The notes under the pieces: model-generated
What the model saw: the letters and a program-made list of their open reading frames with translations, nothing else
What the model was told of the DNA's origin: nothing
Database searches by the model: none
Part shown: piece after piece, positions 7,426-58,811 of the stretch
Layout of the letters: each line of letters starts with the position of its first letter
How positions within the stretch are numbered: the first letter of the stretch is position 1
Assembly: GCA_900763885.1 (NCBI GenBank)
Contig: CAAFLY010000247.1
Coordinates: 383-64,382 of the forward strand
Reading direction: 5' to 3'
DNA length: 64,000 bases
DNA from: Clostridia bacterium
GTDB taxonomy: Bacteria; Bacillota; Clostridia; Oscillospirales; CAG-272
Program-made: the position numbers and the translations under genes

Positions 7426-7555
7426 GGGAACGGAGAGACGGGGAGAAAACGGGCTTGAACGGGTCTGTCCCTGCACAATCGCACCCGGATCCCTTTTCCT
7501 ATAGCTCTTGCCAAGCGGGCAGAAGCATCCCGTTCCCCCGTCTCCCCCGAGCCCC
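7426..7555. repeat. Miniature (130 bp) copy of the G-tract-capped intergenic element
   Basis: Begins on the nt after the aga stop (TGA 7423-7425) with GGGAACGGAGAGACGGGGAG; ends with CCCGTTCCCCCGTCTCCCCCGAGCCCC (7529-7555). Interior has CTGCACAA like the GTGCAAGTC box of larger copies. Confidence 0.55.
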
Positions 7556-7578
7556 TGTGGCAATCCATATAAAAAATC

Positions 7579-9114
7579 ATGCAGAATAAAAAAAATCTCA
7601 CCGGGACTGCGGTGATGATGGGTGTGATGATCCTTGCGGCGAAGGTCTGCGGACTGCTGCGGGACGCGCTCATCACAGCGTCCTACGGCACCGGGACATC
7701 GGCGGCAATCGCGTACGAAACGGCGTCGAAGCTGCCGGTAACGCTGTTCGACCTTGTCATAGGCGGGGTGGTGACGGCGGCGTTTGTGCCGGTATACAAC
7801 GAGCTATTGGTCCGTGACGGCAAAGAAAAAGCGCTGTCCTTCGCGCAGTCCTACACACGCTTCATCCTGATCGTGACCTCGGTGCTTGCCGGGATCGGGA
7901 TCGCGTTCGCCTCGCCGCTTGTCCGACTGATGGCGCCGGGTCTGGACGCGTCCACGCACGCGCTTGCCACCGGTCTCACGCGCATCCTGTTTCCCATGAT
8001 CGTCTTCACGGGACTGGCGTTCACCTTCGTCGGCTATCTCCAGTCGATGGGGGAATTCCGCGTCCCGGCGGTCATATCGCTGGTGGCGAACGGGATCATG
8101 GTCGCGTACCTACTCACGCTGAACCGCTTTTTCGGCATTGTCGGACTGGCGATCGCCATGCTGCTCGGATGGACGGCGCAGGCACTTGTGCAGCTCCCAT
8201 CGCTGTGCCGTCTCGGATACCGATACCGGCCGTTCGCGCCGCTTCGTACTCCGGAACTGAAAAAGGCGATCGTCACCACGGTCCCGATCCTCATCGGCAC
8301 ATGGGTCTCGCCGGTGTGCAATCTCATCAACACGCGCCTTGCGTCCTCCATCGACGGCGGCAGAGGGCTGACCGTGCTGGGATACGCGAACCGCCTGTAC
8401 GTGATCCTCGTCGGGCTGTTCTCCTTTGTCGCGACGAATCTGCTCTTTCCGATTCTGTCCCGTGCGGCGGCAAGCGGCGATCGTGCGGAATCCGCCAGAC
8501 TCACAAGGCAGTCCGCAAAGATTCTATGCTTCCTCATCGTGCCGCTCACCGCAGGCGTCTTTCTCCTCGCCGAACCGTTTGTCGCCCTGCTGTACGAGCG
8601 CGGCGCGTTCACCCACGAGGATACGCTCCTGACCGCGGAGGCACTGCGCTTCTACACGCTTGCCATGACGGCGTCGGCGATCAATGAGGTGCTCACGAAG
8701 TCCTTTTTCGCCGCGCAGAAGCCGAAGCTGCCGATGCTCTCCGCGTTGTGTGCCATGCTGGTCAACGGCGGCGCGATCCTCTTCTGCGGCAGCGCGATTC
8801 TCGCAAGTGCGCATCCCGTCGCGTGGATCGCGTCGATCTCCGGCATTGCCGTGGTCGTGAATATGGCGATCAACCTCGCGTTCACGAAAAAAATCGGGGG
8901 ACTTTCCGTCACGCGCGCGGATCTACTGGATCTTGCCAAGACCGCAGTGTCCGCGGCGGTGATGTCCGTGGCCGTATATTTTGTATCCGGACGCTTCTCC
9001 GGCAATCTTGCGCGGTTTGCGGCCGGTGGGCTTTCCGGGATCGTCGTATACGCGCTCTGTGCGGTGCTGCTCCGTTCGGAAACGGTCGGCGCGGTGCTGC
9101 ACAAGCGGAAATGA
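7579..9114 (+). CDS. murJ: Lipid II flippase MurJ (MviN family)
   Basis: 511 aa, about 14 TM segments, MOP-superfamily N-terminus (GTAVMMGVMILAAKVCGLLRDALITASYGTG). Confidence 0.85.
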   Translation: MQNKKNLTGTAVMMGVMILAAKVCGLLRDALITASYGTGTSAAIAYETASKLPVTLFDLVIGGVVTAAFVPVYNELLVRDGKEKALSFAQSYTRFILIVTSVLAGIGIAFASPLVRLMAPGLDASTHALATGLTRILFPMIVFTGLAFTFVGYLQSMGEFRVPAVISLVANGIMVAYLLTLNRFFGIVGLAIAMLLGWTAQALVQLPSLCRLGYRYRPFAPLRTPELKKAIVTTVPILIGTWVSPVCNLINTRLASSIDGGRGLTVLGYANRLYVILVGLFSFVATNLLFPILSRAAASGDRAESARLTRQSAKILCFLIVPLTAGVFLLAEPFVALLYERGAFTHEDTLLTAEALRFYTLAMTASAINEVLTKSFFAAQKPKLPMLSALCAMLVNGGAILFCGSAILASAHPVAWIASISGIAVVVNMAINLAFTKKIGGLSVTRADLLDLAKTAVSAAVMSVAVYFVSGRFSGNLARFAAGGLSGIVVYALCAVLLRSETVGAVLHKRK

Positions 9115-9147
9115 GCGTCCCCAAATGTTCCGAAAGGAGAGACAACC

Positions 9148-10263
9148 ATGCAAAAAGTCATGCACATACTGACCGACTCCAACATCGGCGGCGCGGGCAG
9201 GCTGCTCATCAACTATCTCCACAACTTCGACCGCACGAAATTCGATATCGTGGTCGTGCTGCCGGAGAATGCCGCGCTGAAGCCGCTCGTCGAGGCGGAG
9301 GGATACCCGGTCTGGGAAATGAAAAACGGACGCGACCGCAGCTTTGACCGCAAGGCTGTGGCGGAGCTCCGCGCGATGATCCGCAAATTTCAGCCGGACA
9401 TCGTCCACACGCATTCGTCCTTCTCCGGCAGGCTGGCGGCGTACCAGTGCCATGTCAAAAAGCGGTTCTACACGCGTCACTGTGCCTTCGATCCGCCACG
9501 CTGGCTGACAACGTTCCCCGGCCGACAGATCAACGGCTGGATCAACAACAAGCTCTCGACGGATATTGTGGCGGTCGCTGAGGCGGCGAAGAAAAATCTG
9601 ACGGACACCGGTGTGGACGCGAAAAAGATCAGCGTGATCATCAACGGCGTCGAACCGATGCGCGTCGCTTCCGCCGAGGAGGTCAAAGCGCTTCGCGGTC
9701 GGCTCGGGATCGCGCCAGATGACTTTGTGTGCGGGCTCTCCGCGCGGCTTGAGCCGTACAAGGGCCATCGCTATCTCCTCGAAACGGCGGCGATCGTGCT
9801 GCGGGACCATCCGAACGTGCGCTTCCTACTCGTCGGGGACGGATCGTGCCGGGCGGATCTGGAAGCGCAGGCGGTCTCCCTCGGCGTGGCGGATCACGTG
9901 ATCTTTACCGGGTTCGTGGACGATGTGGCGCCCTATTACGCGCTTATGGACGTGAACCTCAACTGCTCCATCGGTACGGAGACCTCCTCACTCGCGCTCT
10001 CTGAGGGCATGAGCCTCGGTATCCCCTGCATCGCGACCACCTTCGGCGGCAATCCCTACATGGTCACCGACGGCAAAAACGGGTTCCTCGTCCCCGAACG
10101 AGATCCCGCCGCTATGGCAGAAAAAATCATCGAGCTCATCGAGGACCCCGCACTCCGCAAAAAACTCTCCGCCGGCGCCCTCGAAGCCTACAAAACCAAA
10201 TTCACCGCCTCGACTATGACACGCCAATTGGAATCCATGTACGAGGGGGATTTGAAAACTTAA
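9148..10263 (+). CDS. Glycosyltransferase family 4 (GT-B)
   Basis: 371 aa; N-terminal IGGAG loop and C-terminal E-x7-E region (SEGMSLGIPCIATTFGGNPYMVTDGKNGFLV); RBS AAAGGAGAG. Confidence 0.85.
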   Translation: MQKVMHILTDSNIGGAGRLLINYLHNFDRTKFDIVVVLPENAALKPLVEAEGYPVWEMKNGRDRSFDRKAVAELRAMIRKFQPDIVHTHSSFSGRLAAYQCHVKKRFYTRHCAFDPPRWLTTFPGRQINGWINNKLSTDIVAVAEAAKKNLTDTGVDAKKISVIINGVEPMRVASAEEVKALRGRLGIAPDDFVCGLSARLEPYKGHRYLLETAAIVLRDHPNVRFLLVGDGSCRADLEAQAVSLGVADHVIFTGFVDDVAPYYALMDVNLNCSIGTETSSLALSEGMSLGIPCIATTFGGNPYMVTDGKNGFLVPERDPAAMAEKIIELIEDPALRKKLSAGALEAYKTKFTASTMTRQLESMYEGDLKT

Positions 10264-10966
10264 CGGGGGGAGACGGGGAACGGGGAACGGGGGAACGGTC
10301 GCTTTTGAAAAAGCTCCGCAAAACTTTTATGAGGGGGATGGAGTTGGATATAGTTTGTGCAAGTCCGATTGCTCACCAATTTGGTGCTGTCCAATACATG
10401 AGAAGATCGTTCGCGAGCGGCTGACGCAGTCATCCGCCTTCTACGGGGAGAGATTGCGGGATTTCGTGTATTGGGTAGTGGTAGGATACCGGTTTTCTGC
10501 TGCTATACTGGTTCGGATGGTTGGAGGATTGCGGATGCGCGTTGTCTGTTCCCCATACCCGCGTCTTTCAAATTGAATAACAAAAGCCGTCGGAAGTGCT
10601 TCAAAACACAACCGACGGCTTTTTGTCACGGTTAGATAAAGCAATGCGCGGAGTGAATCGGGATACAGGCAAAAATCAACGTTTTCCCCAACACACCGAA
10701 CCAGTGTATCAACAGAAACCCGGTAACCTGCCACTACCAATACACTATATCCCGCACTCTCTTCCCGTAGAAGGCGGATCCCATCGGGAGCCGCTCGCGA
10801 ACGATCTTCTCATGTATTGGACAGCACCAAATTGGTGAGCAATCGGACTTGCACAAACTAAATCCATCACCAATCCCATGTATAAAAGTTTTGCGGAGCT
10901 TTTTCAAAAGCGACCGTCTCCCCTCGTCTCCCCTCGTCTCCCCTCGTTCCCCCGTCTCCCCGTCCC
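10264..10966. repeat. Full-length palindromic G-tract-capped intergenic element (archetype, about 700 bp)
   Basis: Imperfect inverted arms of about 240 nt (10264-~10505 and ~10725-10966). G-tract cap 10265-10293 and C-tract cap 10917-10966; palindromes 10301-10314 and 10898-10911; boxes GCAAAACTTTTAT 10318-10330 and ATAAAAGTTTTGC 10882-10894. Confidence 0.85.
10582..10624. terminator. Bidirectional intrinsic-terminator-like hairpin at the centre of the element
   Basis: AAAA-GCCGTCGG-18 nt loop-CCGACGGC-TTTTT, lying between the convergent GT4 (+) and acyltransferase (-) genes. Confidence 0.6.
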
Positions 10967-10973
10967 AAGTATG

Positions 10974-11912
10974 TCAGTCCACATCCGGGATCACTTCCGG
11001 GCGTTCGTCGAGCTGCCAGGGGTTGCGGAAGATGCTGTGGAGGTATTTGAGGGCGGAGGCGTAGTAATAGCCGTCACAGATGCGCTCATCGGTCACGAAG
11101 GTGTAGTCCATGTACTGTTTTTTCTTGACCACGCCGGAGGAATCCGTTTCGTATACGCGCCGTTTCGCGCCGAACGCGAAGAATACGGGGCACGTGCCGA
11201 AGTCGTAGAGGTGGTGATAGATCGGCGGGATCCCGAGGGAGCCCATCGACGTAATGAAGTACGAGCAGTGGAACGGACTGACCTCGGCGAGGGCTTTGGG
11301 GAGCAGTCCGAAATAATCGAGGAAGCGGAGGAAGGCAATCGTGAATTTGAGAAGGAGCGAAGGAATGGACGAGAGCCAGCGCGCCGTATCGTCAAAGCTG
11401 CTTTCCGGATTGTCGCGATAGGACACAATCTTGTCGTTGAGGGCGTTGTACACATCCTCCAGCGTCGCGTCCGGCAAAAGCGAGATCTTCACCGCGCTGT
11501 CCGGTGCGTCGAGCCGCATCTCCTTCTTGATGACGAGCGACACCTCCACGTGCCGCCGCGTCCATATCCGCTGTCCGCGTATGAATCGGTTGAGCGCGGG
11601 CCGTGCCGCCACAAGCCGGATGTATGCCGCGATCATCACGTGCATCATGCTCAGATTCACCATGCCCGCCTGCTGCTTTTCCTTGATGTACCGCTCCAGC
11701 TTCTCCACATCGGTCGTGTCGTGGATGAAATTCTGCGCGCCCACCCGATTCACCATGATAAACGGGATCATCGCCGTCATCGGCGGTACGCTCTTCACGC
11801 GGCGGAATTCCCGCTCCTTCTTCCGTTTGCGCGGCCGCGGCGCATGGTTCTCCGCGTTCGTCTGCACCTCCCGCGTTTCCTGCGCTTCTGTTTTCATCTG
11901 TTCTTCAGCCAT
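10974..11912 (-). CDS. 2-oxoacid dehydrogenase acyltransferase catalytic-domain protein
   Basis: Track ORF trimmed to ATG 11912 (RBS GAGGGGG). Basic N-terminus, then an E2-like catalytic core with DERICDG (compare DHRxxDG). Confidence 0.55.
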   Translation of the reverse strand: MAEEQMKTEAQETREVQTNAENHAPRPRKRKKEREFRRVKSVPPMTAMIPFIMVNRVGAQNFIHDTTDVEKLERYIKEKQQAGMVNLSMMHVMIAAYIRLVAARPALNRFIRGQRIWTRRHVEVSLVIKKEMRLDAPDSAVKISLLPDATLEDVYNALNDKIVSYRDNPESSFDDTARWLSSIPSLLLKFTIAFLRFLDYFGLLPKALAEVSPFHCSYFITSMGSLGIPPIYHHLYDFGTCPVFFAFGAKRRVYETDSSGVVKKKQYMDYTFVTDERICDGYYYASALKYLHSIFRNPWQLDERPEVIPDVD

Positions 11913-16148: not shown

Positions 16149-16252
16149 GGGGAACGAGGGGGAGACGGGGGGAGACGGGGGTACGCGGCTTTTGAAAAAG
16201 CCTGGCAAAACTTTTATGAAAAGGGGGATGGAATATAGTTTGTGCGAGTCTT
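16149..16252 (+). repeat. Solo arm of the G-tract-capped element
   Basis: GGGGaacgaGGGGGagacGGGGGGagacGGGGG (16149-16181), palindrome GGCTTTTGAAAAAGCC (16187-16202), GGCAAAACTTTTAT, GGGGGATGGAATATAGTTTGTGCGAGTC. Confidence 0.8.
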
Positions 16253-25837: not shown

Positions 25838-25938
25838 AGAGGGGAACGCGGCTTCTTGAGAACGAACTTGTTCGTTCCAGCCTTGGCAAGAACTTTTATA
25901 AATGGATGGGATTGACTTTTGTTTGTGCAGGTCCGGGG
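25838..25938 (+). repeat. Left arm of the element pair bracketing a 2.4 kb insert
   Basis: GGGGAACG, GCGGCTTCTTGAG-[GAACGAACTTGTTCGTTC hairpin]-CCAGCC, TTGGCAAGAACTTTTATA, ATGGATGGG, TTTGTTTGTGCAGGTCCGGGG. Confidence 0.75.
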
Positions 25939-28128: not shown

Positions 28129-28240
28129 CCCGGACCTGCACAGACTATATCCAGTCCCTTTTCATAAAAGTTTTGGGAGGTGTCGGAACCTTTTTGAAAA
28201 AAGGTTCTGACGTCGTTCTCCCCGTATCCCCCGTTCCCCC
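28129..28240 (-). repeat. Right arm of the element pair bracketing the 2.4 kb insert
   Basis: CCCGGACCTGCACAGACTATATCC, TTCATAAAAGTTTTGGG, palindrome GAACCTTTTT-G-AAAAAAGGTTC (28186-28207), C-tract cap CTCCCCGTATCCCCCGTTCCCCC ending 3 nt before the ATPase stop. Confidence 0.8.
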
Positions 28241-33729: not shown

Positions 33730-34007
33730 GATACGGTCGCTTTTGAGAACGAACCCTCTCGCCCCAGCGCCCGCAAAGCTTTTGTACATAAATGGGTTGT
33801 ATTGCAAGTGTGCAAGTCTGGACAAAGTAAACGAAATTTGCCCAGACAGCACGCTGTGTAACAAAGAATACCGCCTACCATAAGACGGAGCAGACGCAAA
33901 CCGAAAGAACCAAATCCCCTTATGAAAATCGCACAAATTATACCCTGTCCTTTTTCATAAAAGTTTTGCGGAGCTTTTTCAAAAGCGACCGTTCCCCTCG
34001 TTCCCCC
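33730..34007. repeat. Short (about 280 bp) paired copy of the element
   Basis: Left arm GATACGGTCGCTTTTGAGAACGAAC..CGCAAAGCTTTTGTACATAAATGGG..GTGTGCAAGTCTGG. Right arm TTCATAAAAGTTTTGCGGAGCTTTTTCAAAAGCGACCGTTCCCCTCGTTCCCCC ends on the nt before the SBP stop (34008). Confidence 0.8.
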
Positions 34008-40801: not shown

Positions 40802-41068
40802 AGATTGTACCTCCTGATAGATAAAATGTTTTTCGGGGGGTGCTATCGCCCTTATTATATCATAATAATCTATCCATTGGAAGTACTTTTTGATAATTTT
40901 TTCAAGAAAAATTGCAATTGTGCCGCTTCGACAAAAGCACGCACGGTCAGCCGGGGCAATCCTTGTCAAATGTTGACATCCGTCACTCTCACAAGAGACA
41001 TTTTTCCCTCAAAAAATCCACCCACAAAAACGCTCATATGATTTGAACAGAACCAAATTGTCAATCCA

Positions 41069-41172
41069 CCGGCCCTGCACAAACTAGACCTGAATCCATC
41101 CCCTCATAAAAGTTTTGCGGAGCTTTTTCAAAAGCGACCGTTCCCCCGTTCCCCTCGTTCCCCGCGTCCCCC
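41069..41172 (-). repeat. Arm of the element abutting the comM-like stop codon
   Basis: CCGGCCCTGCACAAACTAGACC..CTCATAAAAGTTTTGCGGAGCTTTTTCAAAAGCGACCG plus four C-tracts (41143-41172); stop codon at 41174. Confidence 0.8.
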
Positions 41173-42799: not shown

Positions 42800-42876
42800 G
42801 GGGATACGCGGCTTCTTGAAAGAAGCCTGGCAAGAACTTTTATACAGGGGATGGGGTGGATATAGTTTGTGCTGGG
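42800..42876 (+). repeat. Arm of the element upstream of the comM-like start
   Basis: GGGGATACGC, palindrome GGCTTCTT-GA-AAGAAGCC (42810-42827), TGGCAAGAACTTTTATA, GGGGATGGGGTGGATATAGTTTGTGCTGGG. Confidence 0.8.
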
Positions 42877-43159: not shown

Positions 43160-43240
43160 CCCCTACCCATCAACCCATTCATAAAGGTTTCGTTCAGAAC
43201 GCGTAGCTTTCTGCCTTTTTCCAAAAGCCCCGCTTCGCCG
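43160..43240 (-). repeat. Degenerate arm of the element abutting the flippase stop
   Basis: CCCATCAACCCATTCATAAAGGTTTCGTTCAGAACGCGTAGCTTTCTGCCTTTTTCCAAAAGCCCCGC. Shares the CAGAA(C/T)GCG(T/C)AGCTTTCTG module with 52016-52035. Confidence 0.5.
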
Positions 43241-44672: not shown

Positions 44673-44930
44673 GGGGGAACGAGGGGATACGGTCGCTTTT
44701 GAAAAAGCTCCGCAAAACTTTTATGAAAAGGTTGTATGGATTTCGTTTGTGCAAATCCATGTGCGCACCCATACAGCTCCGTCCCCACTGACTTTAGTCA
44801 GTGACCCGACAGGTATCGTTCGCGAGCGGCTCCCATGCGTTTAGCTTGCTAAACTCCGTAATCCGCTTTCTACGGGAGCAATTGCGTCCATGGATTTATT
44901 TTTAGTGGCAGGATGCCTCAATTACAGTTT
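44673..44930 (+). repeat. Solo long arm of the element
   Basis: GGGGGAACGAGGGGATACGGTCGCTTTTGAAAAAGCTCCGCAAAACTTTTATG..TTTGTGCAAATCC..ATCGTTCGCGAGCGGCTCCC..ATCCGCTTTCTACGGGAGCAATTGCG..AGTGGCAGGATGCC. Collinear with the long arms at 10264 and 50581. Confidence 0.75.
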
Positions 44931-50551: not shown

Positions 50552-50580
50552 TTTATGTAATCCTTTAATTTCTGGTGACT

Positions 50581-51100
50581 GGGGGACGCGGGGAGACGGG
50601 GAACGGGGAACGGTCGCTTTTGAAAAAGCTCCGCAAAACTTTTATATGGGGGTGGTGATGGATTTAGTTTGTGCAAGTCGGTTTGCTCACCAATTTGGTG
50701 CCGTCCTAGGCATCAGGAGATCGTTCGCGAGCGGCTCCCGATGGGATCCGCCTTCTACGGGGAGAGATTGCGGGATATAGTTTATTGGGGTAATGGTAGA
50801 ATACCGCGTTGGGGATGGGATTGCGTGTAATTTTCATTGGAGATTAGACCGCACACCTATCCACCCCCGTCGTGTCTCCCCGCATCCCCGCATCTCCACC
50901 CTGATGGACGCACCTACATCAAATAGACGGCGGATCCGTCCCCGGAGCCGCCCCAGAACGATCTCCTGCGGACTTGGACGGAGCAATATTGGTGCGCACA
51001 CGGACTTGCACAAACTATATCCATCACCAATCCCCTTATAAAAGTTTTGCGGAGCTTTTTCAAAAGCGACCGTTCCCCCCGTTCCCCGTCTCCCGTTCCC
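50581..51100. repeat. Full-length paired copy of the element between map and adk
   Basis: Left arm GGGGGacgcGGGGagacGGGGaacGGGG, CGGTCGCTTTTGAAAAAGCTCCGCAAAACTTTTATA..TTAGTTTGTGCAAGTCGGTTTGCTCACCAATTTGGTGC.. Right arm ..CGGACTTGCACAAACTATATCC..TTATAAAAGTTTTGCGGAGCTTTTTCAAAAGCGACCG plus C-tracts ending 7 nt before the adk stop. Confidence 0.85.
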
Positions 51101-51107
51101 TACAAAG

Positions 51108-51746: not shown

Positions 51747-51756
51747 TTTGTATTTC

Positions 51757-52079
51757 GCGGAGGAGCTTTTCTGAAATAGCCTTCCCCCGCACCCCTTTCA
51801 AAAAACTTTATACTGTATTCTGGTTTTCGTACCCGCAAATCGTCCGTTACGGTATATAAAGTGAGTGCGGAAACATACCGTAACCACTATATCTCTCATT
51901 CTCTCCAAAATAACCCGGGAATAAACAAGCGCACAAAGCTAACCCCTAGAAATCAACCCGGCAATCCGGCAATCCAGCAGTCCAAAATCCTGCCCCTTTT
52001 TTATAAAGTTCTTGCCCAGAATGCGCAGCTTTCTGACTTCTTGTCAAGAAGCGTCCTGTTCCCCCGTTCCCCCGTATCC
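51757..52079. repeat. Paired copy of the element with a variant left arm, between adk and secY
   Basis: Left arm GCGGAGGAGC..GCCTTCCCCCGC-ACCCCTTTCAAAAAACTTTATAC. Right arm TTTATAAAGTTCTTGCC-CAGAATGCGCAGCTTTCTG-ACTTCTTGTCAAGAAG-CGTCCTGTTCCCCCGTTCCCCCGTATCC. Confidence 0.65.
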
Positions 52080-52151
52080 AAGGCAATAACGCCAATAAGC
52101 GGCGTGCTTTCCGTTGGATTGGAGAGAACGCCGCTTGTCGGATGCGGATGA

Positions 52152-53483
52152 TTATTCCAAGAAGCCCTTGTAGTGACGCATGGTCATCTGCGCTTCGATC
52201 TCGCGGATCGTTTCGAGGACGACGCCCACCACGATGATGAGGGACGAGCCGCCGAACGCCAGACTAGCCATTGCACCGCCGGCGATGATGTTCGCAAGGA
52301 GCGGCACCACGGAGACAATACCTAAGAAGATCGCGCCGATGAAGGTCACACGGGACAGGATCTTGCTGATATAGTCCGAGGTCGGTCTGCCCGGACGGAT
52401 ACCCGGGATGAAGCCGCCGTTCGCCTTCATGTTGTTCGCCACTTCGATCGGGTTGAAGGAAATGGAGATGTAGAAGTAGGAGAACGCGACGATGAGAACG
52501 AGCGTCAGGATCGCGTACACGATGCTGTCCGCCTGGAACAGTCCGAGGAATCCGGCCCAGAAGGAGCCTTCCTTCGGCGTCGGGCAGAACATGGCAATCG
52601 TCGCCGGGATCGTGATGATGGAGTTCGCGAAGATGATCGGCATAACGCCCGTCATGTTCACCTTGATCGGAAGATTCGACGACTGGCCGCCGTACATCTT
52701 TCTGCCAACTACCTTCTTCGCGTACTGTACAGGGATTCTGCGTTCACTGTTCGTACCGAATACGATGAACGCCACCATGGCGATCGCAACCACAACCGCA
52801 AGGATTGCGATGATCGTGCCGAGCCACCACGGAATCGTGCCCACCGTGTCGTCGCGCTTCATGTACTGCGCCTTGCCCGTGACAAAACGCCACAGGGAAA
52901 GAGCCGTAGACGGAAGGCGGGAGATAATGTTCACGAAAAGGATCATGGAAATGCCGTTGCCAATGCCGTTTTCGTTGATCTTCTCAGAGAGCCACATGAC
53001 CAGCGCGGAGCCGGCACAATAGCTCGTGATGATAACGATCGCCGCGAAAACGCCCTTGTCAATGATCGCGCCGTTCGTCTTCAGAATCTGATAATAGCCG
53101 AACGCCGTCAGAAGACCCAGCGCAACCGTAACGTAACGGGTGATCTGGTTGATCTTCTTTCTGCCCTCTTCGCCTTCCTTGGAAAGGTTTTCGAGGTAGG
53201 GGATCGCGATGCAAAGAAGCTGCATTACGATGGATGCCGTAATGTACGGGTTGATACCCAGTGCAAACAGTGTCGCCTGCGAGAATGCGTTACCGGTGAT
53301 GATGTTCAGATACTGGAAGATCGAACCGTTCGTCGCCGACATATACAGGCTGAGCTGGTTGGAATCCAGGTACGGAACCGGAATCGCTGTGCCAACCCGG
53401 TACAATACGAGAATGAACAGGGTAAAGAGCAGTTTCTTCTTCAGATCCGCAATTTTCCACGCATTCTTGATGGTCTCGAACAC
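52152..53483 (-). CDS. secY: Preprotein translocase subunit SecY
   Basis: 443 aa, 10 TM segments; canonical SecY N-terminus and position after rplO. Confidence 0.95.
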   Translation of the reverse strand: MFETIKNAWKIADLKKKLLFTLFILVLYRVGTAIPVPYLDSNQLSLYMSATNGSIFQYLNIITGNAFSQATLFALGINPYITASIVMQLLCIAIPYLENLSKEGEEGRKKINQITRYVTVALGLLTAFGYYQILKTNGAIIDKGVFAAIVIITSYCAGSALVMWLSEKINENGIGNGISMILFVNIISRLPSTALSLWRFVTGKAQYMKRDDTVGTIPWWLGTIIAILAVVVAIAMVAFIVFGTNSERRIPVQYAKKVVGRKMYGGQSSNLPIKVNMTGVMPIIFANSIITIPATIAMFCPTPKEGSFWAGFLGLFQADSIVYAILTLVLIVAFSYFYISISFNPIEVANNMKANGGFIPGIRPGRPTSDYISKILSRVTFIGAIFLGIVSVVPLLANIIAGGAMASLAFGGSSLIIVVGVVLETIREIEAQMTMRHYKGFLE

Positions 53484-53924
53484 TTATACCACCTCGGTCT
53501 TTCCACCCACCGCTTCAATTTTTTCCTTTGCACTTGCGGAGAAAACAGAAGCTTCAACGGTTAATTTTTTCTTGATTTCGCCGTTGCCGAGTACCTTCAG
53601 ACCGTCCAGTGGCTTCTTAACAATACCGGCGGCCATAAGTTTGTCGAGGTTTACGGTTTCGCCGTCTTCAAAACGATTCAGAGTCTCCAGATTCACGATC
53701 GCGTAGTGTACCGCGAAGTGATTGTGGAAGCCTCTCTTCGGCAGCTTTCTGTACAGAGGAAGCTGACCGCCTTCAAATCCCGGACGAACGCCGCCGCCGG
53801 AACGCGCATTCTGACCCTTGTGGCCTTTGCCCGCGGTCTTGCCGTTGCCGGAGCCGGGACCTCTGCCAACACGGAATCCGTCTTTTACGGAGCCGGGAGC
53901 CGGTGTCAGTTCATGGAGTTTCAT
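53484..53924 (-). CDS. rplO: 50S ribosomal protein L15
   Basis: [31 protein letters not shown]. Confidence 0.95.
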
Positions 53925-53966
53925 AAGTTATATCCTCCTATCAATATATCGTGTCTTTCGGAGGGC

Positions 53967-54146
53967 TTACGCCTTCTCCACGATCACCAGGTGAGAAAGC
54001 ACCTTGATCTTACCGTCCAGTACCGGGCCAGCCTCGTGCACCACGGAGTCACCGATCTTGCGCAGACCGAGAGACGCGGCGGTTGCCTTCTGGTTGGGCT
54101 TCGCGGCTATGAGACTCTTCTTCAGAGTAACCTTTACGTTTTCCAT
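53967..54146 (-). CDS. rpmD: 50S ribosomal protein L30
   Basis: Not in the ORF track (59 aa). Hand translation MENVKVTLKKSLIAAKPNQKATAASLGLRKIGDSVVHEAGPVLDGKIKVLSHLVIVEKA. Confidence 0.9.
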   Translation of the reverse strand: MENVKVTLKKSLIAAKPNQKATAASLGLRKIGDSVVHEAGPVLDGKIKVLSHLVIVEKA

Positions 54147-54161
54147 TGCTCATAACCTCCC

Positions 54162-54668
54162 TTATTCCGTTACCTGCTCCACGCTGATGCCTCTGGTCTT
54201 GGCGACCTGTTCGGCACTGCGGAGCGTTTTCAGACCCTCAAAGGTAGCCTTCACAACGTTTACCGGGTTGTTGGAACGGAGGCACTTGGAACGTACATTC
54301 TTGATGCCCGCCAGCTCCATTACGACACGTACCGTCTTGCCTGCGATGATACCGGTACCTTTCGGAGCCGGCTTCAGCAGTACGGTGCCCGCGCCATATA
54401 CGCCCAGCACTTCGTGCGGAATCGTTACCTCATTGATGGATACTTCGATCATGTTCTTCTTTGCATCTTCGATCGCCTTGCGGACCGCTTCCGGTACCTC
54501 AGCAGCCTTGCCGATACCGTAGCCTACGTGTCCGTTGCCGTCGCCGACTACCATGACAGCCGCAAAACGAGCGATACGACCGCCCTTGACCGTCTTGGAT
54601 ACGCGGCGGATGACGACCTGCTTTTCCTGCAGATCGAGCTCATCGGGATTAAATCTCTTGTTAGCCAT
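54162..54668 (-). CDS. rpsE: 30S ribosomal protein S5
   Basis: ..[38 protein letters not shown]. Confidence 0.95.
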
Positions 54669-54943
54669 TTCGTTTCTCCAAAATTATTTTTGAAATGATG
54701 TTCTGATAACTTCCTTCTCGACGCCATCGCGTTACCCTATCACATAGGAAGCAGGCTCGGAATCTGCCCGCGATGCCGCCCCAAAAACCGGGACAAAAGC
54801 TGCCAACACAGCCCAAAAAACGAAAGTCAAAGCCCAACCACCACCCTACGATAGCGGTATTCTCCCCTATACAGCGTGCCGCACAAAGGATAAAAGCCAA
54901 ACCAAAGAAACGAGCGCCATAAGCCAACCAAACATTCATTCTG

Positions 54944-55010
54944 TTCCCCAGTATAAAAGTTTTGCCAGGCTTTTCCAAAAGCCGCGTTCCCCCGTCCCCG
55001 TTCCCCCCCC
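54944..55010 (-). repeat. Solo arm of the element between rplR and rpsE
   Basis: CCCCAGTATAAAAGTTTTGCCA, palindrome GGCTTTT-CC-AAAAGCC (54968-54983), GCGTTCCCCCGTCCCCGTTCCCCCCCC. Confidence 0.8.
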
Positions 55011-55036
55011 GAGGAAGTTATGTGTACAACCCGGAA

Positions 55037-55396
55037 TTAGAACTTAAGGCCGCCTTCGCGAGCGCCTGCCGCCAGTTCCGATACACGTCCGTGATAGATA
55101 TAACCGCCACGGTCGAAGACAACATCTTCGATGCCCTTGGCCTTTGCTCTTTCGGCGATGGTCATGCCGACCTTCTTAGCGGCTTCCTTGTTGGAGCCGA
55201 TAGCGCCGAAATCCTTCTCGGTGGTGGAAGCCGCGCAGAGCGTAACTCCTGCCACGTCGTCGATGATCTGTGCGTAAATGTGTGCGTTGGAGCGGTAAAC
55301 AGCGAGACGGGGACGTTCAGCGGTACCGGACACTTTGGCACGAACTCTCGCATGTCTCTTAAGACGCTGCGCATTCTTATCCTTCTTAGTAACCAT
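55037..55396 (-). CDS. rplR: 50S ribosomal protein L18
   Basis: ..[29 protein letters not shown]. Confidence 0.95.
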
Positions 55397-55414
55397 TTAT
55401 AACGTCTCCTTTCC

Positions 55415-55954
55415 TTATTTACCGGTCTTACCGGCTTTACGACGGATACGCTCGTCGCTGTACTTGATACCCTTGCCGTGGTACGGTTCCGGGGGTCTCT
55501 TCGCGCGGATGTTCGCTGCGACCTGACCGCAGTACTGCTTGTCGAAGCTCTTCACGATGATCGTGTTGGAGTCCGGCACGTCGAACGTTACCTTGTCGTC
55601 TTCGTTGAAGTAGATCGGGTGCGAGTGACCGACGTTCAGGACGATGCGCTTGCCTTCCTTCGCTACTCTGTAGCCGACGCCAACGATCTCCAGCTTCTTC
55701 TCGTAGCCCTTCGATACGCCCTCGACCATGTTGTGGATCAGGGTTCTCGTCAGACCGTGGAGCGCGCGGTTCTCGTTCTCGTCGTCGGGACGCGTTACGT
55801 GAATGACGGAGCCGTCCACGGTAACGGTCATGGCCGCGGGTGCCTTGTACGTCAGCTCGCCCTTTGCGCCCTTAACGGTAATCAGGTTGTTTTCGCCCAC
55901 GGTTACGGTCACGCCAGCGGGTACCGTAATGGGAGCTCTACCAATTCTAGACAT
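55415..55954 (-). CDS. rplF: 50S ribosomal protein L6
   Basis: MSRIGRAPITVPAGVTVTV.. Confidence 0.95.
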   Translation of the reverse strand: MSRIGRAPITVPAGVTVTVGENNLITVKGAKGELTYKAPAAMTVTVDGSVIHVTRPDDENENRALHGLTRTLIHNMVEGVSKGYEKKLEIVGVGYRVAKEGKRIVLNVGHSHPIYFNEDDKVTFDVPDSNTIIVKSFDKQYCGQVAANIRAKRPPEPYHGKGIKYSDERIRRKAGKTGK

Positions 55955-55973
55955 CTCTTAACCTCCCTTTCTC

Positions 55974-56372
55974 TTACCAGACAAAAGCGAGGATCTCGCC
56001 GCCTACGTTTTCCCGTCTTGCCTTCTTGTCGGTCATGATGCCCTTGGAGGTCGATACGATCGCGATGCCAAGTCCGTTCATAACCTTCGGCATGTCTTCG
56101 CAGTTGGAGTAGATCCGCAGACCCGGCTTCGATACGCGGCGCAGTCCGTGAATGACCTTCTGCTTGCCTGCCTCGTACTTCAGCGTGATGCGGATGATGC
56201 CCTGCTTGCCGTCTTCAATTACCTGCACGCCCTTGATGTACCCCTCGTTCAGCAGAATGTCGGCGATTGCCTTCTTCATGTTGGACGCGGGTACGTCTAC
56301 GGTCTCGTGCTTTGCGTTATTCGCATTTCTGATTCTGGTCAGCATATCGGCGATAACGTCAGAAATCTGCAT
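55974..56372 (-). CDS. rpsH: 30S ribosomal protein S8
   Basis: ..[24 protein letters not shown]. Confidence 0.95.
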
Positions 56373-56502
56373 AATGTTTTCCTCCTGTCATGCAAGTCGT
56401 TTTTTCTTGCTGCCCGGCAGTTCTTTCGAGGATTTTTACCTTCCTCTCTCAGCTTTGCCAAGCCGCTTGCCAGGGGTTAAAGTGAGTAGTCCTGGTCGCT
56501 CG

Positions 56503-56575
56503 GGTGGAGAGACGGTCGCTTTTGAAAAAGCTCCGCAAAACTTTTATACATGGACTTCGTGGGCACAAGACCCAC
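56503..56575 (+). repeat. Arm of the element inside the rpsN-rpsH spacer
   Basis: GGGTGGAGAGACGGTCGCTTTTGAAAAAGCTCCGCAAAACTTTTATACATGGACTTCGTGGGCACAAGACCC. Confidence 0.75.
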
Positions 56576-56988
56576 GCAGCCATGTATGACAGATTTCATG
56601 GAATTTCTCTCACAACAGTGAATCGTCCATCTATCCGGGTGATCAGAACCGACGCTTTCCTACTGGCGCGGAACGTATATTTCCCGACGCGGGATTTCTC
56701 CCGTACCGGGGTATGGATCGGGGACAGTTTTTGCGCCATCCCCGTACCAATCTGAAAATAAGTGCGCTTTCGCAATATCCGGGACATACATGTGTCCGCC
56801 GCAAGCCAGCCAAACAGCAGTCTACAGAGCCAGTCTGAACGAACAAATCCTCAACCCAACTCCATAATCCGCCAACCGTCAGCCCCAAACCCAACAAAAT
56901 GTCAAATCCAGTCTGCGGCAGCTATTTGCGGTAGCCTTCATGCCTGTCGGGGCTTCCCGACCTTCATGCCCGCGGGGGCGTCCCCGCC

Positions 56989-57174
56989 TTACCAGGATGC
57001 TTTGCGAACGCCGGGGATCTCGCCCTTGTAGGCCAGCTCACGGAAGCAGATACGGCAGATACCGTACTTGCGGAGGTAAGCATGGGGACGACCGCAGATC
57101 TTGCAGCGGTTGTACTTCCGGGTGGAGTACTTCTGCTCTTTCTGCTGCTTCAGGATCATCGATGTTTTAGCCAT
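56989..57174 (-). CDS. rpsN: 30S ribosomal protein S14, zinc-binding type Z
   Basis: 61 aa; [23 protein letters not shown]. Confidence 0.95.
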
Positions 57175-57191
57175 TTCTTCTGCCTCCTCGA

Positions 57192-57734
57192 TTATTTCGC
57201 AAAGGGTGCGCCCATAAGGGTCAGCATTTCCTTAGCTTCTGCGTCGGTCTGCGCGGTGGTAACGAAGCAAATGTCCATACCACGGATCTTTTCGACCTTG
57301 TCATACTCGATTTCGGGGAAGATGAGCTGTTCCTTCAGACCGAGGGCGTAGTTGCCTCTGCCGTCGAACGCGTCCGGGTTGATGCCCTTGAAGTCGCGCA
57401 CTCTCGGAAGAGCGAAGTTGAACAGACGATCCATGAACTCGTACATCTTTTCGCCGCGGAGGGTGACCTTCACGCCGATCTTCATGCCCTCACGGAGCTT
57501 GAAGTTCGCGACGGACTTCTTCGCGTAGGTCGGAACGGGCTTCTGACCGGTGATCAGCGCCAGGTCCGCCATGATCGCGTCGATGACCTTCGTGTTTTCC
57601 TTCGCGTCGCCCGCGCCAACGTTGATGACGATCTTGTCGATCTTCGGGATCTGCATCACGCTCTTGTACTGGAACTTCTTCATCAGAGCCGGAGCTACCT
57701 CAGAAGTGTATAATTCTTTCATTCTTGCAGCCAT
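57192..57734 (-). CDS. rplE: 50S ribosomal protein L5
   Basis: ..[37 protein letters not shown]. Confidence 0.95.
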
Positions 57735-57748
57735 CGTACACCTCCGAA

Positions 57749-58066
57749 TTACAGCTCAGCGCCGCACTTGGCGCATACGCGGGTTTTCTTGTCGCCGTCG
57801 ATCTTGTGGGCGGCTCTGGTAGCCTTCTTGCACTTGCTGCAGTACAGCTGTACCTTGGAGGCGTAGATCGCGCCTTCAACCTCGACGATTCCGCCGGCTT
57901 CCTGGGGCGGTCTCGGCTTGACGTGCTTCTTTACGAGATGCACGCCGGATACGATTACTTTGCCTTCCTTCGGCGATACCTCAACGACCTTGCCGGTCTT
58001 GCCCTTATCGTCGCCGGAAATGACGATGACCTCGTCACCCTTCTTTATATGAAGCTTCTTAATCAT
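57749..58066 (-). CDS. rplX: 50S ribosomal protein L24
   Basis: Start trimmed to ATG 58066 (GGAGG, 8-nt spacing): [25 protein letters not shown]. Confidence 0.9.
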
Positions 58067-58080
58067 CTTTTCTACCTCCA

Positions 58081-58449
58081 TTAAAGAACTTCGGGTGCCA
58101 GGGACAGGATCTTGGTGTAGTCGTGCTCACGAAGCTCACGTGCTACAGGCCCAAAAATACGGGTGCCCTTGGGGTTCTTATCGTCGTTGATGATCACGGC
58201 CGCGTTTTCGTCAAACTTGATGTAGGATCCGTCGCCGCGGCGCAGACCCTTTCTGCTTCTGACGATCACTGCCTTGACTACGTCGCCTTTCTTGACAACG
58301 CCGCCCGGAGACGCCTTCTTTACAGCGCATACGACTACGTCGCCAATGTTTGCGTAACGTCTGCCGGTGCCGCCCAGTACCCGGATGCACATAAGCTCCT
58401 TCGCACCGGTGTTGTCGGCAACCTTCATTAAGGATTGCTGTTGAATCAT
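58081..58449 (-). CDS. rplN: 50S ribosomal protein L14
   Basis: [27 protein letters not shown]. Confidence 0.95.
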
Positions 58450-58594
58450 GTCTTGTATCTCCTTGTGTGTTTTTGTGAGGAGTACACCGTCAGAGAGTTC
58501 GCACGACCATAGGGCGTCAAAGCAGGTTTCCCCGCCGTCTGACCCCTGCTCCGTGCGCTTATCTTACGGCTTTTTTCTTTGGGATTTATTGTTC

Positions 58595-58811
58595 GCGGGG
58601 GAAACTTTTTTCGAGAAAAAAGTCTCCCCCGCACCCCCTTCCAAAAAGCTTTACATATTTTTGGTTAGGGATACGGTTTTGCCTACAGGACGTACATACG
58701 GCTTAACTCGTCAGAGCCGCACCGCATGTTTGTCTCGTGAAAAGGTATAAAGTTTTTTGGAGGTGTCGGAACCTTTTCGCAAAAAGGTTCTGACATCGTT
58801 CCCCCGTATCC
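58595..58811. repeat. Paired copy of the element with a variant left arm, between rpsQ and rplN
   Basis: Left arm is a 17-bp hairpin GCGGGGGAAACTTTTTT-cgag-AAAAAAGTCTCCCCCGC (58595-58632) plus ACCCCCTTCCAAAAAGCTTTACATA. Right arm GTATAAAGTTTTTTGGAGGTGTCGGAACCTTTTCGCAAAAAGGTTCTGACATCGTTCCCCCGTATCC ends on the nt before the rpsQ stop. Confidence 0.7.

What the first reader, a model, noticed from the sequence alone, without database searches (positions are those of the whole stretch)
7426..58811. About 13 loci (about 20 arms) of the same element in 64 kb, always with G-tract caps facing the flanking genes
Seen: copies lie at 7426-7555 (mini), 10264-10966, 16149-16252 (solo) and 25838-25938 with 28129-28240. 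Further copies lie at 33730-34007, 40165-40225 (degenerate) with 41069-41172, and 42800-42876 with 43160-43240. The rest lie at 44673-44930 (long solo arm), 50581-51100, 51757-52079, 54944-55010, 56503-56575 and 58595-58811. Together they cover roughly 3 kb, about 5% of the window. The G/C-tract cap lies 0 nt from a stop codon at 7426, 10264, 34007, 40165 and 58811. It lies 1-7 nt from a stop codon at 41172, 28240, 10966 and 51100. Next to gene starts it stops 17-30 nt short, leaving the Shine-Dalgarno intact (25838/25815, 16149/16121, 42800/42778, 44673/44645, 50581/50551, 33730/33700). I see no target-site duplication by eye. Inference: either insertion is targeted to gene boundaries (for example to terminator or RBS-proximal DNA), or only such insertions survive selection. 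Either way it is a strikingly ordered pattern for a repeat.
Basis: partly seen in the sequence, partly recalled or inferred. Interest (0 to 1): 0.75.

Follow-up and report, generated by a model that had tools for sequence, protein, structure and literature searches.

The report
Layered palindromic repeat filling intergenic DNA
An uncultured human-gut Clostridia genome has about a third of its gene-to-gene spacers filled by one family of nested, hairpin-forming repeats with G-rich ends that sit flush against stop codons; it is a new variant of the known class of bacterial intergenic repeats, and its 33-base core is identical across many distant relatives.

Summary
All 13 loci and about 22 ends are at the stated coordinates. 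The 30-nt core has 9 hits against 0 expected. G-rich heptamer caps face the flanking genes at every locus.

The pattern holds in related genomes: 19 of 32 stop-side caps lie 7 nt or less from the stop codon.

The element is layered:
- an outer cap palindrome with a variable number of GGGGAAC-type units;
- a stem-loop plus an A4CT4AT box, together a 33-nt core;
- a lineage-specific structured body of 100-290 nt;
- sometimes a central bidirectional terminator.

Copies are gained and lost between related species. In conspecific contigs the adk-map copy is reduced to its caps, with two different junctions. Its interior is inverted between relatives. Arms are mosaics, and cap length varies between orthologous copies.

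I found no transposase, no target-site duplication, no Rfam family and no matching literature.

The 33-nt core is identical in hosts of 35-63% GC. It also lies in frame inside NRPS genes.

Best reading: a non-autonomous, recombining MITE/REP/BOX-like repeat, probably co-opted as gene punctuation. It is a new variant of a known kind. The mobilising enzyme and the reason for the invariant core remain unknown.

The parts
7426..7555 (.). Mini copy. It has a G-cap on the + strand at the left, one degenerate arm read on the - strand (cap 7529-7555), and a C-rich end. It lies 0 nt after the stop codon of gene 4984-7425 and 23 nt before the start codon at 7579.
   Evidence: G4 motif at 7529-7555 on the - strand. 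The copy is absent from the orthologous spacer of L070, which is 53 nt long.
10264..10966 (.). Complete copy between convergent genes. Its parts are:
- left cap, 10264-10297;
- left core, 10298-10330;
- left body, 10331-10575;
- central bidirectional terminator-like hairpin, 10583-10625;
- right body, 10630-10881;
- right core, 10882-10914;
- right cap, 10915-10966.
   Evidence: (I2: arms of 141 nt, 89% complementary). Folding each arm gives z-scores of -3.1 and -4.7, with a terminal hairpin. The orthologous copy in L070 has the same left junction, a shorter cap, and a right arm that is almost base-for-base identical, while the whole 3.4-kb match averages 82%.
16149..16252 (+). Solo arm between two genes on the - strand. 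The cap lies 27 nt from the start codon at 16121. The inner end lies about 20 nt from the stop codon at 16273.
25838..25938 (+). Solo arm with an expanded stem-loop (GAACGAAC/GTTCGTTC). The cap lies 17-23 nt from the start of gene 24220-25821 on the - strand.
28129..28240 (-). Solo arm with the type-B stem-loop GTCAGAACCTTTTT..AAAAAGGTTCCGAC. The cap lies 3 nt from the stop codon at 28244. The arm points into operon 26054-27977.
   Evidence: The enclosed genes encode membrane proteins, not transposases.
33730..34007 (.). Paired copy between tandem genes on the - strand. The right cap lies 0 nt from the stop codon at 34008. The left end lies 29 nt from the start codon at 33700.
   Evidence: The copy is present, with a 60-nt longer interior, in the conspecific contig L155.
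40165..40225 (+). Degenerate arm (cap plus a partial core, GGTCGCTTCTGAA). It lies 0 nt after the stop codon of gene 38380-40164.
   Evidence: (D15).
41035..41172 (-). Arm whose cap lies 1 nt from the stop codon at 41174. It points towards the TM2-domain gene 40385-40969.
42800..42876 (+). Arm with stem-loop GGCTTCTTGAAAGAAGCC. The cap lies 21 nt from the start codon at 42778.
   Evidence: The orthologue in L069 carries an 18-nt extra cassette in the stem-loop.
43160..43240 (-). Weak variant arm. Its end lies 1 nt from the stop codon at 43242.
   Evidence: E = 0.035. It is absent from L069 and L084, where the spacer is 32 nt.
44673..44930 (+). Long solo arm inside the 5' untranslated region (5'UTR) of gene 43242-44645. 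It lies between a conserved promoter-like site (TTCACA..TGGTATACT, about 44975-45010 on the - strand) and the SD.
   Evidence: It is present in L013 and absent from L069 and L084.
50581..51100 (.). Complete copy between adk and map. The caps lie 7 nt from the adk stop codon and 29 nt from the map start codon. There is no central terminator, and a cap-like C-rich block lies inside at about 50840-50870.
   Evidence: Searches give the copy itself.
- Ten relatives are compared.
- The interior is inverted between relatives.
- The interior is lost, with the caps kept, in L090, L146 and L149.
51757..52079 (.). Paired copy between secY and adk with variant stem-loops: GCGGAGGAGC..CCCCCGC on the left and GCTTCTTGACAAGAAGC plus a cassette on the right.
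54669..55010 (-). Arm (cap, core and box at 54936-55010) plus a body of about 270 nt that runs to the SD of rpsE. It points in the direction of transcription and contains the promoter-like site TTGGAA-17-TATACT.
56503..56988 (+). Arm at 56503-56575 between rpsN and rpsH. The rest of the 616-nt spacer ends in a cap-like GC block at 56960-56988, 0 nt from the rpsN stop codon. How far the element extends beyond 56575 is uncertain.
   Evidence: The same spacer is 30 nt long in the outgroup half of L094.
58595..58811 (.). Paired copy between rpsQ and rplN. It has a type-C stem-loop on the left (GCGGGGGAAACTTTTTTCGAGAAAAAAGTCTCCCCCGC) and a type-B stem-loop plus cap on the right, 0 nt from the stop codon at 58812.

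Best explanation
This is a family of non-coding, non-autonomous, nested-palindrome repeats. It belongs to the same general kind as REP/BIME/REPIN, pneumococcal BOX, Neisseria Correia elements and MITEs. It has come to make up much of the intergenic DNA of an uncultured human-gut Clostridia lineage.

Shown: the layers.
1. An outer pair of inverted caps made of a variable number of G-rich heptamers or octamers.
2. Inside that, a stem-loop plus the box AAAACTTTTAT. Together these form a 33-nt core that is invariant in many Clostridia lineages.
3. A lineage-specific structured body of 100-290 nt.
4. Optional cassettes nested in the stem-loop, and an optional central bidirectional terminator.

Shown: the dynamics.
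- Units are gained and lost between related species.
- The interior is repeatedly lost, leaving a cap-cap hairpin.
- The interior is inverted between relatives.
- Arms are mosaics that exchange segments.
- One arm is much more alike between species than the surrounding region.
- Cap length changes between orthologous copies.

Inferred: spread. Copies spread or re-seed through an unidentified trans-acting enzyme that recognises the invariant core hairpin. They leave no target-site duplication, which would fit a hairpin or single-strand DNA transposase of the HUH type, or an insertion sequence that targets palindromes. Afterwards they are homogenised by recombination between copies.

Inferred: placement. 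The ordered placement arises because only copies that spare the stop codon and the ribosome-binding site (SD) survive. In addition, the element itself supplies hairpin/terminator signals, and in some copies promoter signals, so the original spacer becomes dispensable and is deleted up to the stop codon.

Inferred: effect. As RNA, the cap and stem-loop immediately 3' of the stop codon should act like REP hairpins, as a 3'-end barrier or stabiliser and a possible modulator of translation termination.
For: Reality and copy number.

Layering.
- The stem-loop differs in sequence but always folds in the same place before an unpaired box.
- A cassette sits in the stem-loop, always in the same position and orientation.
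- Cap-only alleles exist at adk-map in contigs that encode the identical Adk protein, with two different junctions: cap-GCGACC-cap in L090 and L146, and cap directly joined to cap in L149.

Gain and loss between species: 7426-7555, 43160-43240 and 44673-44930 are absent from UMGS1696-type contigs. None is present in the outgroup half of L094.

Inversion: the adk-map interior is 96-97% identical in the same orientation in L089 and L098. It is 91-94% identical only when flipped in L092, L095 and L097. The exchange points lie inside the arms.

Concerted evolution: the right arm is almost identical between the window and L070, while the whole 3.4-kb match averages 82%.

Placement: 19 of 32 caps lie 7 nt or less from a stop codon across the window and 29 related loci. 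Element-free spacers are mostly 70-320 nt.

Functional signals.
- A central hairpin with T-runs on both strands lies in the copy between convergent genes and not in the copy between tandem genes.
- The promoter-like site TTGGAA-17-TATACT points at rpsE.
- Terminator-like hairpins lie downstream of the core in 28/42 and 39/61 arms, against 14/42 and 22/61 in the control direction.

Non-coding and non-autonomous: no transposase lies between or next to arms.

Precedent: REPs within 15 nt of a stop codon stall ribosomes (PMC12306157, read).
Against: - No transposase, recombinase or RAYT was found, but only 0.87 Mb of fragments could be searched.
- No target-site duplication was seen, and no clean empty/filled pair with alignable flanks, so insertion as opposed to loss has not been seen directly.
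- Cap-only hairpins are rare (only the adk-map alleles). This argues against caps being a widespread pre-existing target.
- Variable cap length is awkward for any enzyme that must cut at a fixed distance from the core.
- A 33-nt core identical in hosts of 35-63% GC, and inside NRPS coding sequence, is not explained by selfish spread alone.
- Signs of RNA structure on the inward strand, namely compensatory changes and G-U pairs, together with a promoter-like core, would also fit small RNA genes.
- Some rearranged joins (L088, L147, L148) may be assembly errors at the repeat.
Confidence: 0.55

Rival explanations
1. Each arm is a small transcription unit, and the family is a very large set of small-RNA genes. 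The core would be the promoter (TTGAAA, 17 nt, TATnnn) and the 100-290-nt body the RNA. The centre of the element, or a hairpin with a T-run, would be the terminator. The conserved core and the gene-boundary position would then reflect function, not mobility.
For: - The core reads as a -35 hexamer matching 5 of 6, an optimal 17-nt spacer, and TAT.
- In four lineages with unrelated bodies, a hairpin with a T-run follows the core, clustering about 50-65 and 100-120 nt downstream in the non-window lineages.
- The two arms of 10264-10966 converge on a bidirectional terminator-like hairpin.
- One hairpin shows GC to CG changes in 13 sequences and AU to CG in 7.
- Several pairs alternate A-U and G-U on the inward strand, which would be A-C mismatches on the other strand.
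Against: - The last -10 position is not conserved: TATGAG, TATACA and TATGAA all occur. The consensus scan calls no promoter in 10200-11000.
- Type-B and type-C stem-loops put no -35 at the right distance.
- Sixteen loci in 64 kb implies hundreds of genes per genome.
- Arms are truncated, mosaic, and gained or lost between close relatives.
- The 44673 arm lies in a 5'UTR and is transcribed antisense to the proposed RNA.
- There is no Rfam family.
- The helices tested were drawn from these same sequences, so the pair counts are partly circular.
Confidence: 0.15
2. Insertion is actively targeted. The mobile unit runs from core to core and lands in the centre of a pre-existing G/C-rich palindrome, or of a terminator-like hairpin that already sits just after stop codons. 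The caps would then be the split halves of the target, not part of the mobile DNA.
For: - In L149 the caps are joined directly (GGGAAC|GTTCCCC). In L090 and L146 they are joined with 6 leftover end bases (GCGACC), like an empty site and an excision footprint.
- Smaller cassettes sit in the loop of the core hairpin.
- The core, not the cap, is what is conserved across lineages, as expected for the end that a transposase binds.
- Insertion sequences that target REP palindromes are known (reference 26 of PMC8040213, seen).
Against: - Unoccupied cap hairpins are almost absent. Only L090 was found in the DNA held at that point, and L146 and L149 are alleles of the same adk-map site.
- Between-species empty sites (L070, L084) lack the caps as well.
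- All ten other relatives carry the full copy at adk-map, so loss is the more parsimonious reading.
- All caps in a genome share the same heptamers, so they are themselves repeats and not independent terminators.
Confidence: 0.2
3. The copies are programmed invertible switches (invertons). A site-specific recombinase would act on the invariant core and flip the interior, turning neighbouring genes such as map on or off.
For: The adk-map interior occurs in both orientations among close relatives. An invariant inverted 33-nt site at many loci resembles the shared inverted repeats of global invertase systems in gut Bacteroides (my own knowledge, not tested here).
Against: - Exchange points lie inside the arms, at different positions in the left and right arm. 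This indicates general recombination and conversion, not a fixed crossover site.
- No recombinase gene lies near any copy.
- Many copies are solo arms that cannot invert.
- Orientation mixtures within one sample could not be examined.
Confidence: 0.05
4. The copies are ordinary conserved regulatory DNA (terminators and promoters) that look repeated only because of convergent or concerted evolution, and are not mobile at all.
For: The copies sit exactly where terminators and promoters are expected. The central terminator is present between convergent genes and absent between tandem genes.
Against: - Whole units are present or absent at orthologous spacers.
- They split otherwise tight ribosomal-protein operons, whose spacers are 6-30 nt in an outgroup.
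- The same core occurs in hosts of 35-63% GC and inside coding sequence.
Confidence: 0.05

Closest known systems
REP / BIME / REPIN elements of Enterobacteria and Pseudomonas
   Same: - Extragenic and palindromic, in hundreds of copies.
- Occur singly or as inverted pairs.
- Mosaic combinations of modules.
- Concentrated just downstream of genes, with many within 15 nt of the stop codon, where they affect translation and mRNA ends (PMC12306157).
- No target-site duplication.
- Serve as targets for other insertions.
   Different: - The units here are much longer (100-700 nt against 20-40 nt).
- They carry G-rich heptamer arrays of variable number at the ends.
- They lack the conserved GTAG tetranucleotide.
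- No RAYT gene was found.
- The host is a Clostridia lineage.
- There is no sequence similarity.
Pneumococcal BOX elements (boxA-(boxB)n-boxC) and RUP
   Same: Modular intergenic repeats with a variable number of an internal subunit. They are predicted to fold stably as RNA, occur in a Gram-positive host, have no coding capacity, and influence neighbouring genes.
   Different: Here the variable-number subunit is a terminal G-rich unit of 7-8 nt, not a 45-nt internal box. The element is an inverted pair with an invertible interior. There is no sequence similarity and no Rfam hit.
Neisseria Correia elements (CREE/NEMIS)
   Same: Small inverted-repeat elements in about 1-2% of the genome. They sit at gene boundaries, are co-transcribed with neighbouring genes, and carry promoter and terminator activity.
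   Different: Correia elements have 26-bp terminal repeats, a TA duplication and an IHF site. Here there is no duplication, the arms are long (140-290 nt), the ends carry cap arrays, and the density is higher (5% of the window).
MITEs in the strict sense
   Same: Short, non-coding, inverted ends, many copies, presence/absence differences between strains.
   Different: There is no target-site duplication and no cognate insertion sequence. The conserved sequence is subterminal, not terminal. The outermost ends vary in length.
Rickettsia palindromic elements (RPE)
   Same: A palindromic repeat that also occurs in frame inside protein-coding genes. Here the 33-nt core lies inside NRPS condensation domains.
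   Different: Only the 33-nt core, plus a G-rich stretch, lies in the coding sequence, not the whole element. This is seen in one protein family only.

Membership tests
MITE | Terminal inverted repeats | tested here: met
   The arms of 10264-10966 are 141 nt long and 89% complementary. Those of 50581-51100 are 104 nt and 78% complementary.
MITE | Target-site duplication flanking each copy | tested here: not met
   No direct repeat occurs at the two outer ends of any copy. Empty sites in L070, L069 and L084 are too diverged to define the junctions exactly.
MITE | Short, non-coding, many copies, presence/absence differences | tested here: met
   Searches show copy number. Searches show no transposase inside. 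Searches show polymorphism.
MITE | A cognate autonomous insertion sequence with the same ends | tested here: inconclusive
   None was found in 0.87 Mb of fetched loci. There was no hit in plasmids or viral contigs. Whole genomes could not be scanned.
REP/REPIN | Extragenic palindromic unit, often in inverted pairs, enriched just after stop codons | tested here: met
   (19 of 32 caps lie 7 nt or less from a stop codon).
REP/REPIN | A unit of 20-40 nt with a conserved 5' tetranucleotide (GTAG) | tested here: not met
   The core is 33 nt but has no GTAG. Whole units are 100-700 nt long.
REP/REPIN | A single-copy RAYT (Y1 HUH transposase) gene flanked by the repeats | tested here: inconclusive
A single-copy gene would easily be missed.
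Invertons (phase-variable invertible regions) | Both orientations exist | tested here: met
   The adk-map interior is flipped between relatives.
Invertons (phase-variable invertible regions) | A fixed crossover site and a nearby or global site-specific recombinase | tested here: not met
   Exchange points lie inside the arms and differ between the left and right arm. No recombinase was found.
Invertons (phase-variable invertible regions) | A mixture of orientations within one population | not testable with these tools
   This needs read-level data.
Any Rfam RNA family | A score above the gathering threshold of a covariance model | tested here: not met
   Only a tRNA-Ala was found in the whole window. 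E-value scans of 10200-11000, 44600-45140 and 50500-58900 gave only chance-level hits.

The most novel reading that the evidence does not exclude
The invariant 33-nt core (GTCGCTTTTGAAAAAGCTCCGCAAAACTTTTAT) would be the recognition site of a conserved, still unidentified trans-acting protein shared by many Clostridia lineages. The protein could be a hairpin-specific transposase or recombinase, or a dedicated transcription factor. The layered elements would then form a pan-Clostridia 'gene-boundary cassette' system with three properties.
- It installs terminators, promoters and polar barriers prone to G-quadruplex formation flush with stop codons.
- It can excise to leave a cap hairpin.
- It can even be written in frame into NRPS genes, where it might serve as a recombination site for module exchange.
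Probability: 0.15. Interest if true: 0.85.

Novelty: new variant of a known kind. Interest (0 to 1): 0.62.

Why it matters
If the reading holds, this lineage shows how far a selfish palindromic repeat can go towards replacing native intergenic DNA. About a third of the spacers carry it. Even the S10/spc/alpha ribosomal-protein operons are split by it. Flanking genes end flush against it.

Three practical consequences follow.
- MAG assemblies of these abundant gut Clostridia break or mis-join at the repeat.
- Gene expression at hundreds of loci may depend on the repeat.
- The caps are the only canonical G-quadruplex motifs in the window, always on the sense strand of incoming transcription. That makes polar G4 or REP-like effects on termination directly testable.

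The 33-nt core is identical across hosts of 35-63% GC and embedded in NRPS coding sequence. It is a sharp, unexplained signal that points to an unknown sequence-specific factor.

Tried and rejected
- Known RNA family: Rfam at gathering threshold on the whole window, and E-value scans on three regions, gave nothing.
- Transposase inside paired arms: the genes between 25838 and 28240 and between 40165 and 41172 encode membrane/TM2 proteins.
- A systematic scan of core pairs 0.9-5 kb apart found only housekeeping genes.
- Clustering of all ORFs within 1.2 kb of a core found no recurrent neighbour. The clusters were translations of the repeat itself.
- Phage or plasmid origin: no hits.
- Literature by exact sequence and by topic: nothing found.
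- Target-site duplication: none by eye at any copy or in the ortholog comparisons.
- Sigma-54, sporulation-sigma and Bacteroidetes promoter readings of the box were compared by eye with consensus sequences from my own knowledge and rejected.
- A conserved small ORF in the arms was rejected because indels shift the frame between copies.
- CRISPR-like arrays were rejected because the spacing is not regular.
- Free cap-cap hairpins as a common precursor: only L090 was found in the DNA held at that point, and L146 and L149 are alleles of the same adk-map site.
- My first two attempts to measure cap-to-stop distance failed because the cap was not delimited. One search is the valid one. Its start-side distances are unreliable because of start-codon choice.
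- The consensus terminator scan misses the central hairpin of 10264-10966 because its loop exceeds 8 nt. The hairpin is seen in the folds.

Full report
Observation. From the flanking gene inwards there is a G-rich cap of GGGGAAC/GGGGAGAC/GGGGATAC-type units, then a stem-loop, then the box (C)AAAACTTTTAT. In most copies GGATATAGTTTGTGCAAGTCC and a longer body follow. The 30-mer GCTTTTGAAAAAGCTCCGCAAAACTTTTAT occurs 9 times at 3 or fewer mismatches, against 0 in 100 shuffles. The two full copies have arms of 141 nt (89% complementary) and 104 nt (78%). With my gene calls, 16 of the 37 spacers of at least 40 nt carry a piece of the family.

Distances in the window. Cap to stop codon is 0, 0, 0, 0, 0, 1, 1, 3, 7 and 7 nt, with two exceptions of 26 and 72 nt. 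Cap to start codon is 10-29 nt, except where a promoter or leader intervenes (130 and 145 nt).

Host and spread. The window is 99.98-100% identical to contigs of GCA_902475975.1 and of several human-gut metagenomes. An exact 24-mer of the core hit at least 80 loci in species-representative genomes. Nearly all of them are uncultured gut Clostridia/Eubacteriales MAGs from humans, sheep, goat, yak and roe deer. The 33-mer hit 46 metagenome contigs of 35-63% GC.

- The core is base-for-base identical in all of them.
- The DNA outside it is lineage-specific: (GGGGAAC)n here, (GGACGCG)n in another lineage, and a 45-nt inverted repeat in low-GC hosts.
- The body inside it is also lineage-specific.

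Stem-loop variants. Within the window the stem-loop has several sequence variants. All fold at the same place in front of an unpaired box, with energies from -7 to -25 kcal/mol.

Placement beyond the window. In the window plus 29 loci from related genomes, 32 arms have a gene ending towards the cap. The cap-to-stop distance is 7 nt or less in 19 of them and 16 nt or less in 25. Some of the larger values come from degenerate cap units that my rule did not count. Element-free spacers in the window are mostly 70-320 nt. From these numbers I infer that uniform landing would give 7 nt or less only about 5-10% of the time. Stop-side arms outnumber start-side arms 32 to 12.

Dynamics.
- (a) Whole units are present or absent between related species. 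The mini copy at 7426-7555 is missing from L070, whose spacer is 53 nt. The arms at 43160-43240 and 44673-44930 are missing from L069 and L084, and the latter is present in L013.
- (b) Ten orthologous ribosomal-protein clusters carry the same large spacers. The outgroup half of contig L094 has spacers of 6-30 nt there.
- (c) At adk-map the full 520-570-nt copy is present in nine relatives. In contigs that encode the identical Adk protein it is reduced to its caps. L090 and L146 read cap-GCGACC-cap, and L149 reads cap directly joined to cap. The interior was therefore lost, or was never gained, at least twice with different junctions. The remaining hairpin folds at -32 kcal/mol.
- (d) The interior of that copy is 96-97% identical in the same orientation in L089 and L098. 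It is 91-94% identical only when reverse-complemented in L092, L095 and L097. The exchange points lie inside the arms and differ between the left and right arm, which indicates general recombination and conversion.
- (e) Arms are mosaics of a few alternative cassettes.
- (f) The right arm of 10264-10966 is almost identical in L070, while the whole 3.4-kb match averages 82%. Synteny ends at the element.
- (g) Cap length differs between orthologous copies.
- (h) A two-hairpin cassette sits in the core stem-loop of some arms in relatives, always in the same place and orientation.
- (i) Contigs L088, L147 and L148 join arms of different loci. These are either real rearrangements or mis-assemblies at the repeat.

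What it is not.
- No Rfam family matches.
- No transposase lies between or beside arms.
- There are no phage or plasmid matches.
- No target-site duplication is visible.
- Nothing was found in the searchable literature, by sequence or by topic.

RNA-level clues.
- The core reads as TTGAAA-17-TATnnn, but the last -10 base is not conserved, and the variant stem-loops put no -35 at the right distance.
- One copy (TTGGAA-17-TATACT at 54978-54950) points at rpsE and passes the consensus scan.
- In four lineages with unrelated bodies, a hairpin with a T-run follows the core. Terminator-like sites occur inward in 28/42 and 39/61 arms, against 14/42 and 22/61 in the control direction.
- The copy between convergent genes has a central hairpin with T-runs on both strands. 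The copy between tandem genes has none.
- On a 29-arm alignment one hairpin shows GC to CG changes in 13 sequences and AU to CG in 7. Several pairs alternate A-U and G-U on the inward strand. These helices were drawn from the same sequences, so this is only suggestive. RNAalifold on its own found one compensatory pair.
- The 44673 arm lies between a conserved promoter-like site and the SD of its gene. If that site is active, the arm is transcribed in the outward sense as a 5'UTR.
- All 8 canonical G-quadruplex motifs of the window are caps. The G strand is the sense strand for transcription entering the element.

Mechanism.
- Shown: a layered, palindromic, non-coding repeat that is gained, lost, inverted, converted and resized, and that sits flush with stop codons.
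- Inferred: spread through an unknown trans-acting enzyme that recognises the invariant core hairpin.
- Inferred: homogenisation by recombination.
- Inferred: survival only where the stop codon and SD are spared.
- Inferred: co-option as terminator, promoter or 3'-end structure, so that the native spacer is lost. Placement flush with stop codons parallels E. coli REPs, which stall ribosomes when 15 nt or less from the stop codon (PMC12306157).
- Rivals: small-RNA genes, targeted landing in palindrome centres, and invertons. They are listed with their tests, and the first two may be partly true at the same time.

Comparison. The family works like REP/BIME/REPIN, BOX, Correia and MITE elements. 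It fails defining features of each: no GTAG or RAYT found, no TA or other duplication, no cognate insertion sequence, and no sequence similarity. I therefore class it as a new variant of a known kind.

Unexplained. The 33-mer, preceded by a G-rich stretch, lies in frame in a variable loop between motifs C2 and C3 of NRPS condensation domains, where it encodes KSFAELFQKR. It occurs in five modules from three MAGs that are labelled as three phyla, all at 42-45% GC. It is the only exact stretch of 20 nt or more shared between NRPS genes from different MAGs. Why the core is invariant across such contexts is open.

Caveats.
- All comparison DNA is from MAGs or metagenome contigs.
- Gene starts come from my own simple caller.
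- Whole genomes could not be scanned.
- No expression data were available.

Noticed in passing
L007 1607-1639, L022 about 123-166, L047 3483-3515, L054 2790-2822, L073 about 1507-1539: The 33-nt core lies in frame (reverse strand, KSFAELFQKR) inside NRPS condensation domains, between motifs C2 and C3. It is found in MAGs labelled Deferrimicrobium, Acidobacteriota and Clostridia, all at 42-45% GC. It is the only exact stretch of 20 nt or more shared between NRPS genes from different MAGs. Relative to TycC the loop is about 7 residues longer.
   Followed up: partly
L090 13010-13070; L146 2146-2193; L149 1012-1055: Conspecific contigs carry only a cap-cap hairpin between adk and map instead of the 520-nt element. 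The junctions are of two kinds: GCGACC retained, or the caps joined directly. These are either excision footprints or palindrome-centred deletions.
   Followed up: yes
L148 2120-2700; L147 2120-2380; L088: Contigs join the adk-side arm to the arm next to rplQ (as expected for a 6.4-kb inversion between arms 44673 and 51100), to truB, or join 42.8 kb to 52.0 kb. These are either real rearrangements mediated by the repeat or assembly chimeras at it. L094 switches organism after rpsN.
   Followed up: partly
window 1806-1856 and 18841-18891: An unrelated 51-nt inverted repeat pair (80% complementary). Both copies lie in intergenic spacers, and there is no Rfam hit.
   Followed up: no
window 26054-27977 (- strand): A two-gene operon bracketed by arms 25838 and 28240. 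It encodes a 440-aa multi-pass membrane protein and a 191-aa protein with a Cys-rich C-terminus. Neither has a Pfam match, and the region has the lowest GC of the window (0.53).
   Followed up: partly
window 29197-32458 and 34008-37027: Two tandem pairs of paralogous genes of about 500 aa, 72-89% identical at the nucleotide level. They are probably solute-binding proteins of ABC transporters (weak PF01547 hits on the gene at 35582-37027 and on a neighbour in L162).
   Followed up: no
L011 4640-5170; L003 3500-4200; L105 250-900: In low-GC Clostridia the same core sits inside elements of about 560 nt. Their outer layer is a 45-nt inverted repeat (CAAATTTTGATTTATCGGGGAG..AAGTAAAAAAG) instead of G-heptamers. 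One end carries the type-A stem-loop and the other the type-C stem-loop. The element again stops about 15 nt before a start codon.
   Followed up: partly
window 56461-56432 (-) and 49488-49460 (-): Sigma-70-like promoters. TTGGCA-17-TAAAAT lies between cap 56503 and rpsH, which would re-start the split spc operon. A perfect TTGACA-17-TATAAT lies at 49.5 kb.
   Followed up: no
window 38142-38214 (-): A tRNA-Ala (CGC), the only Rfam or ARAGORN hit in the window.
   Followed up: no
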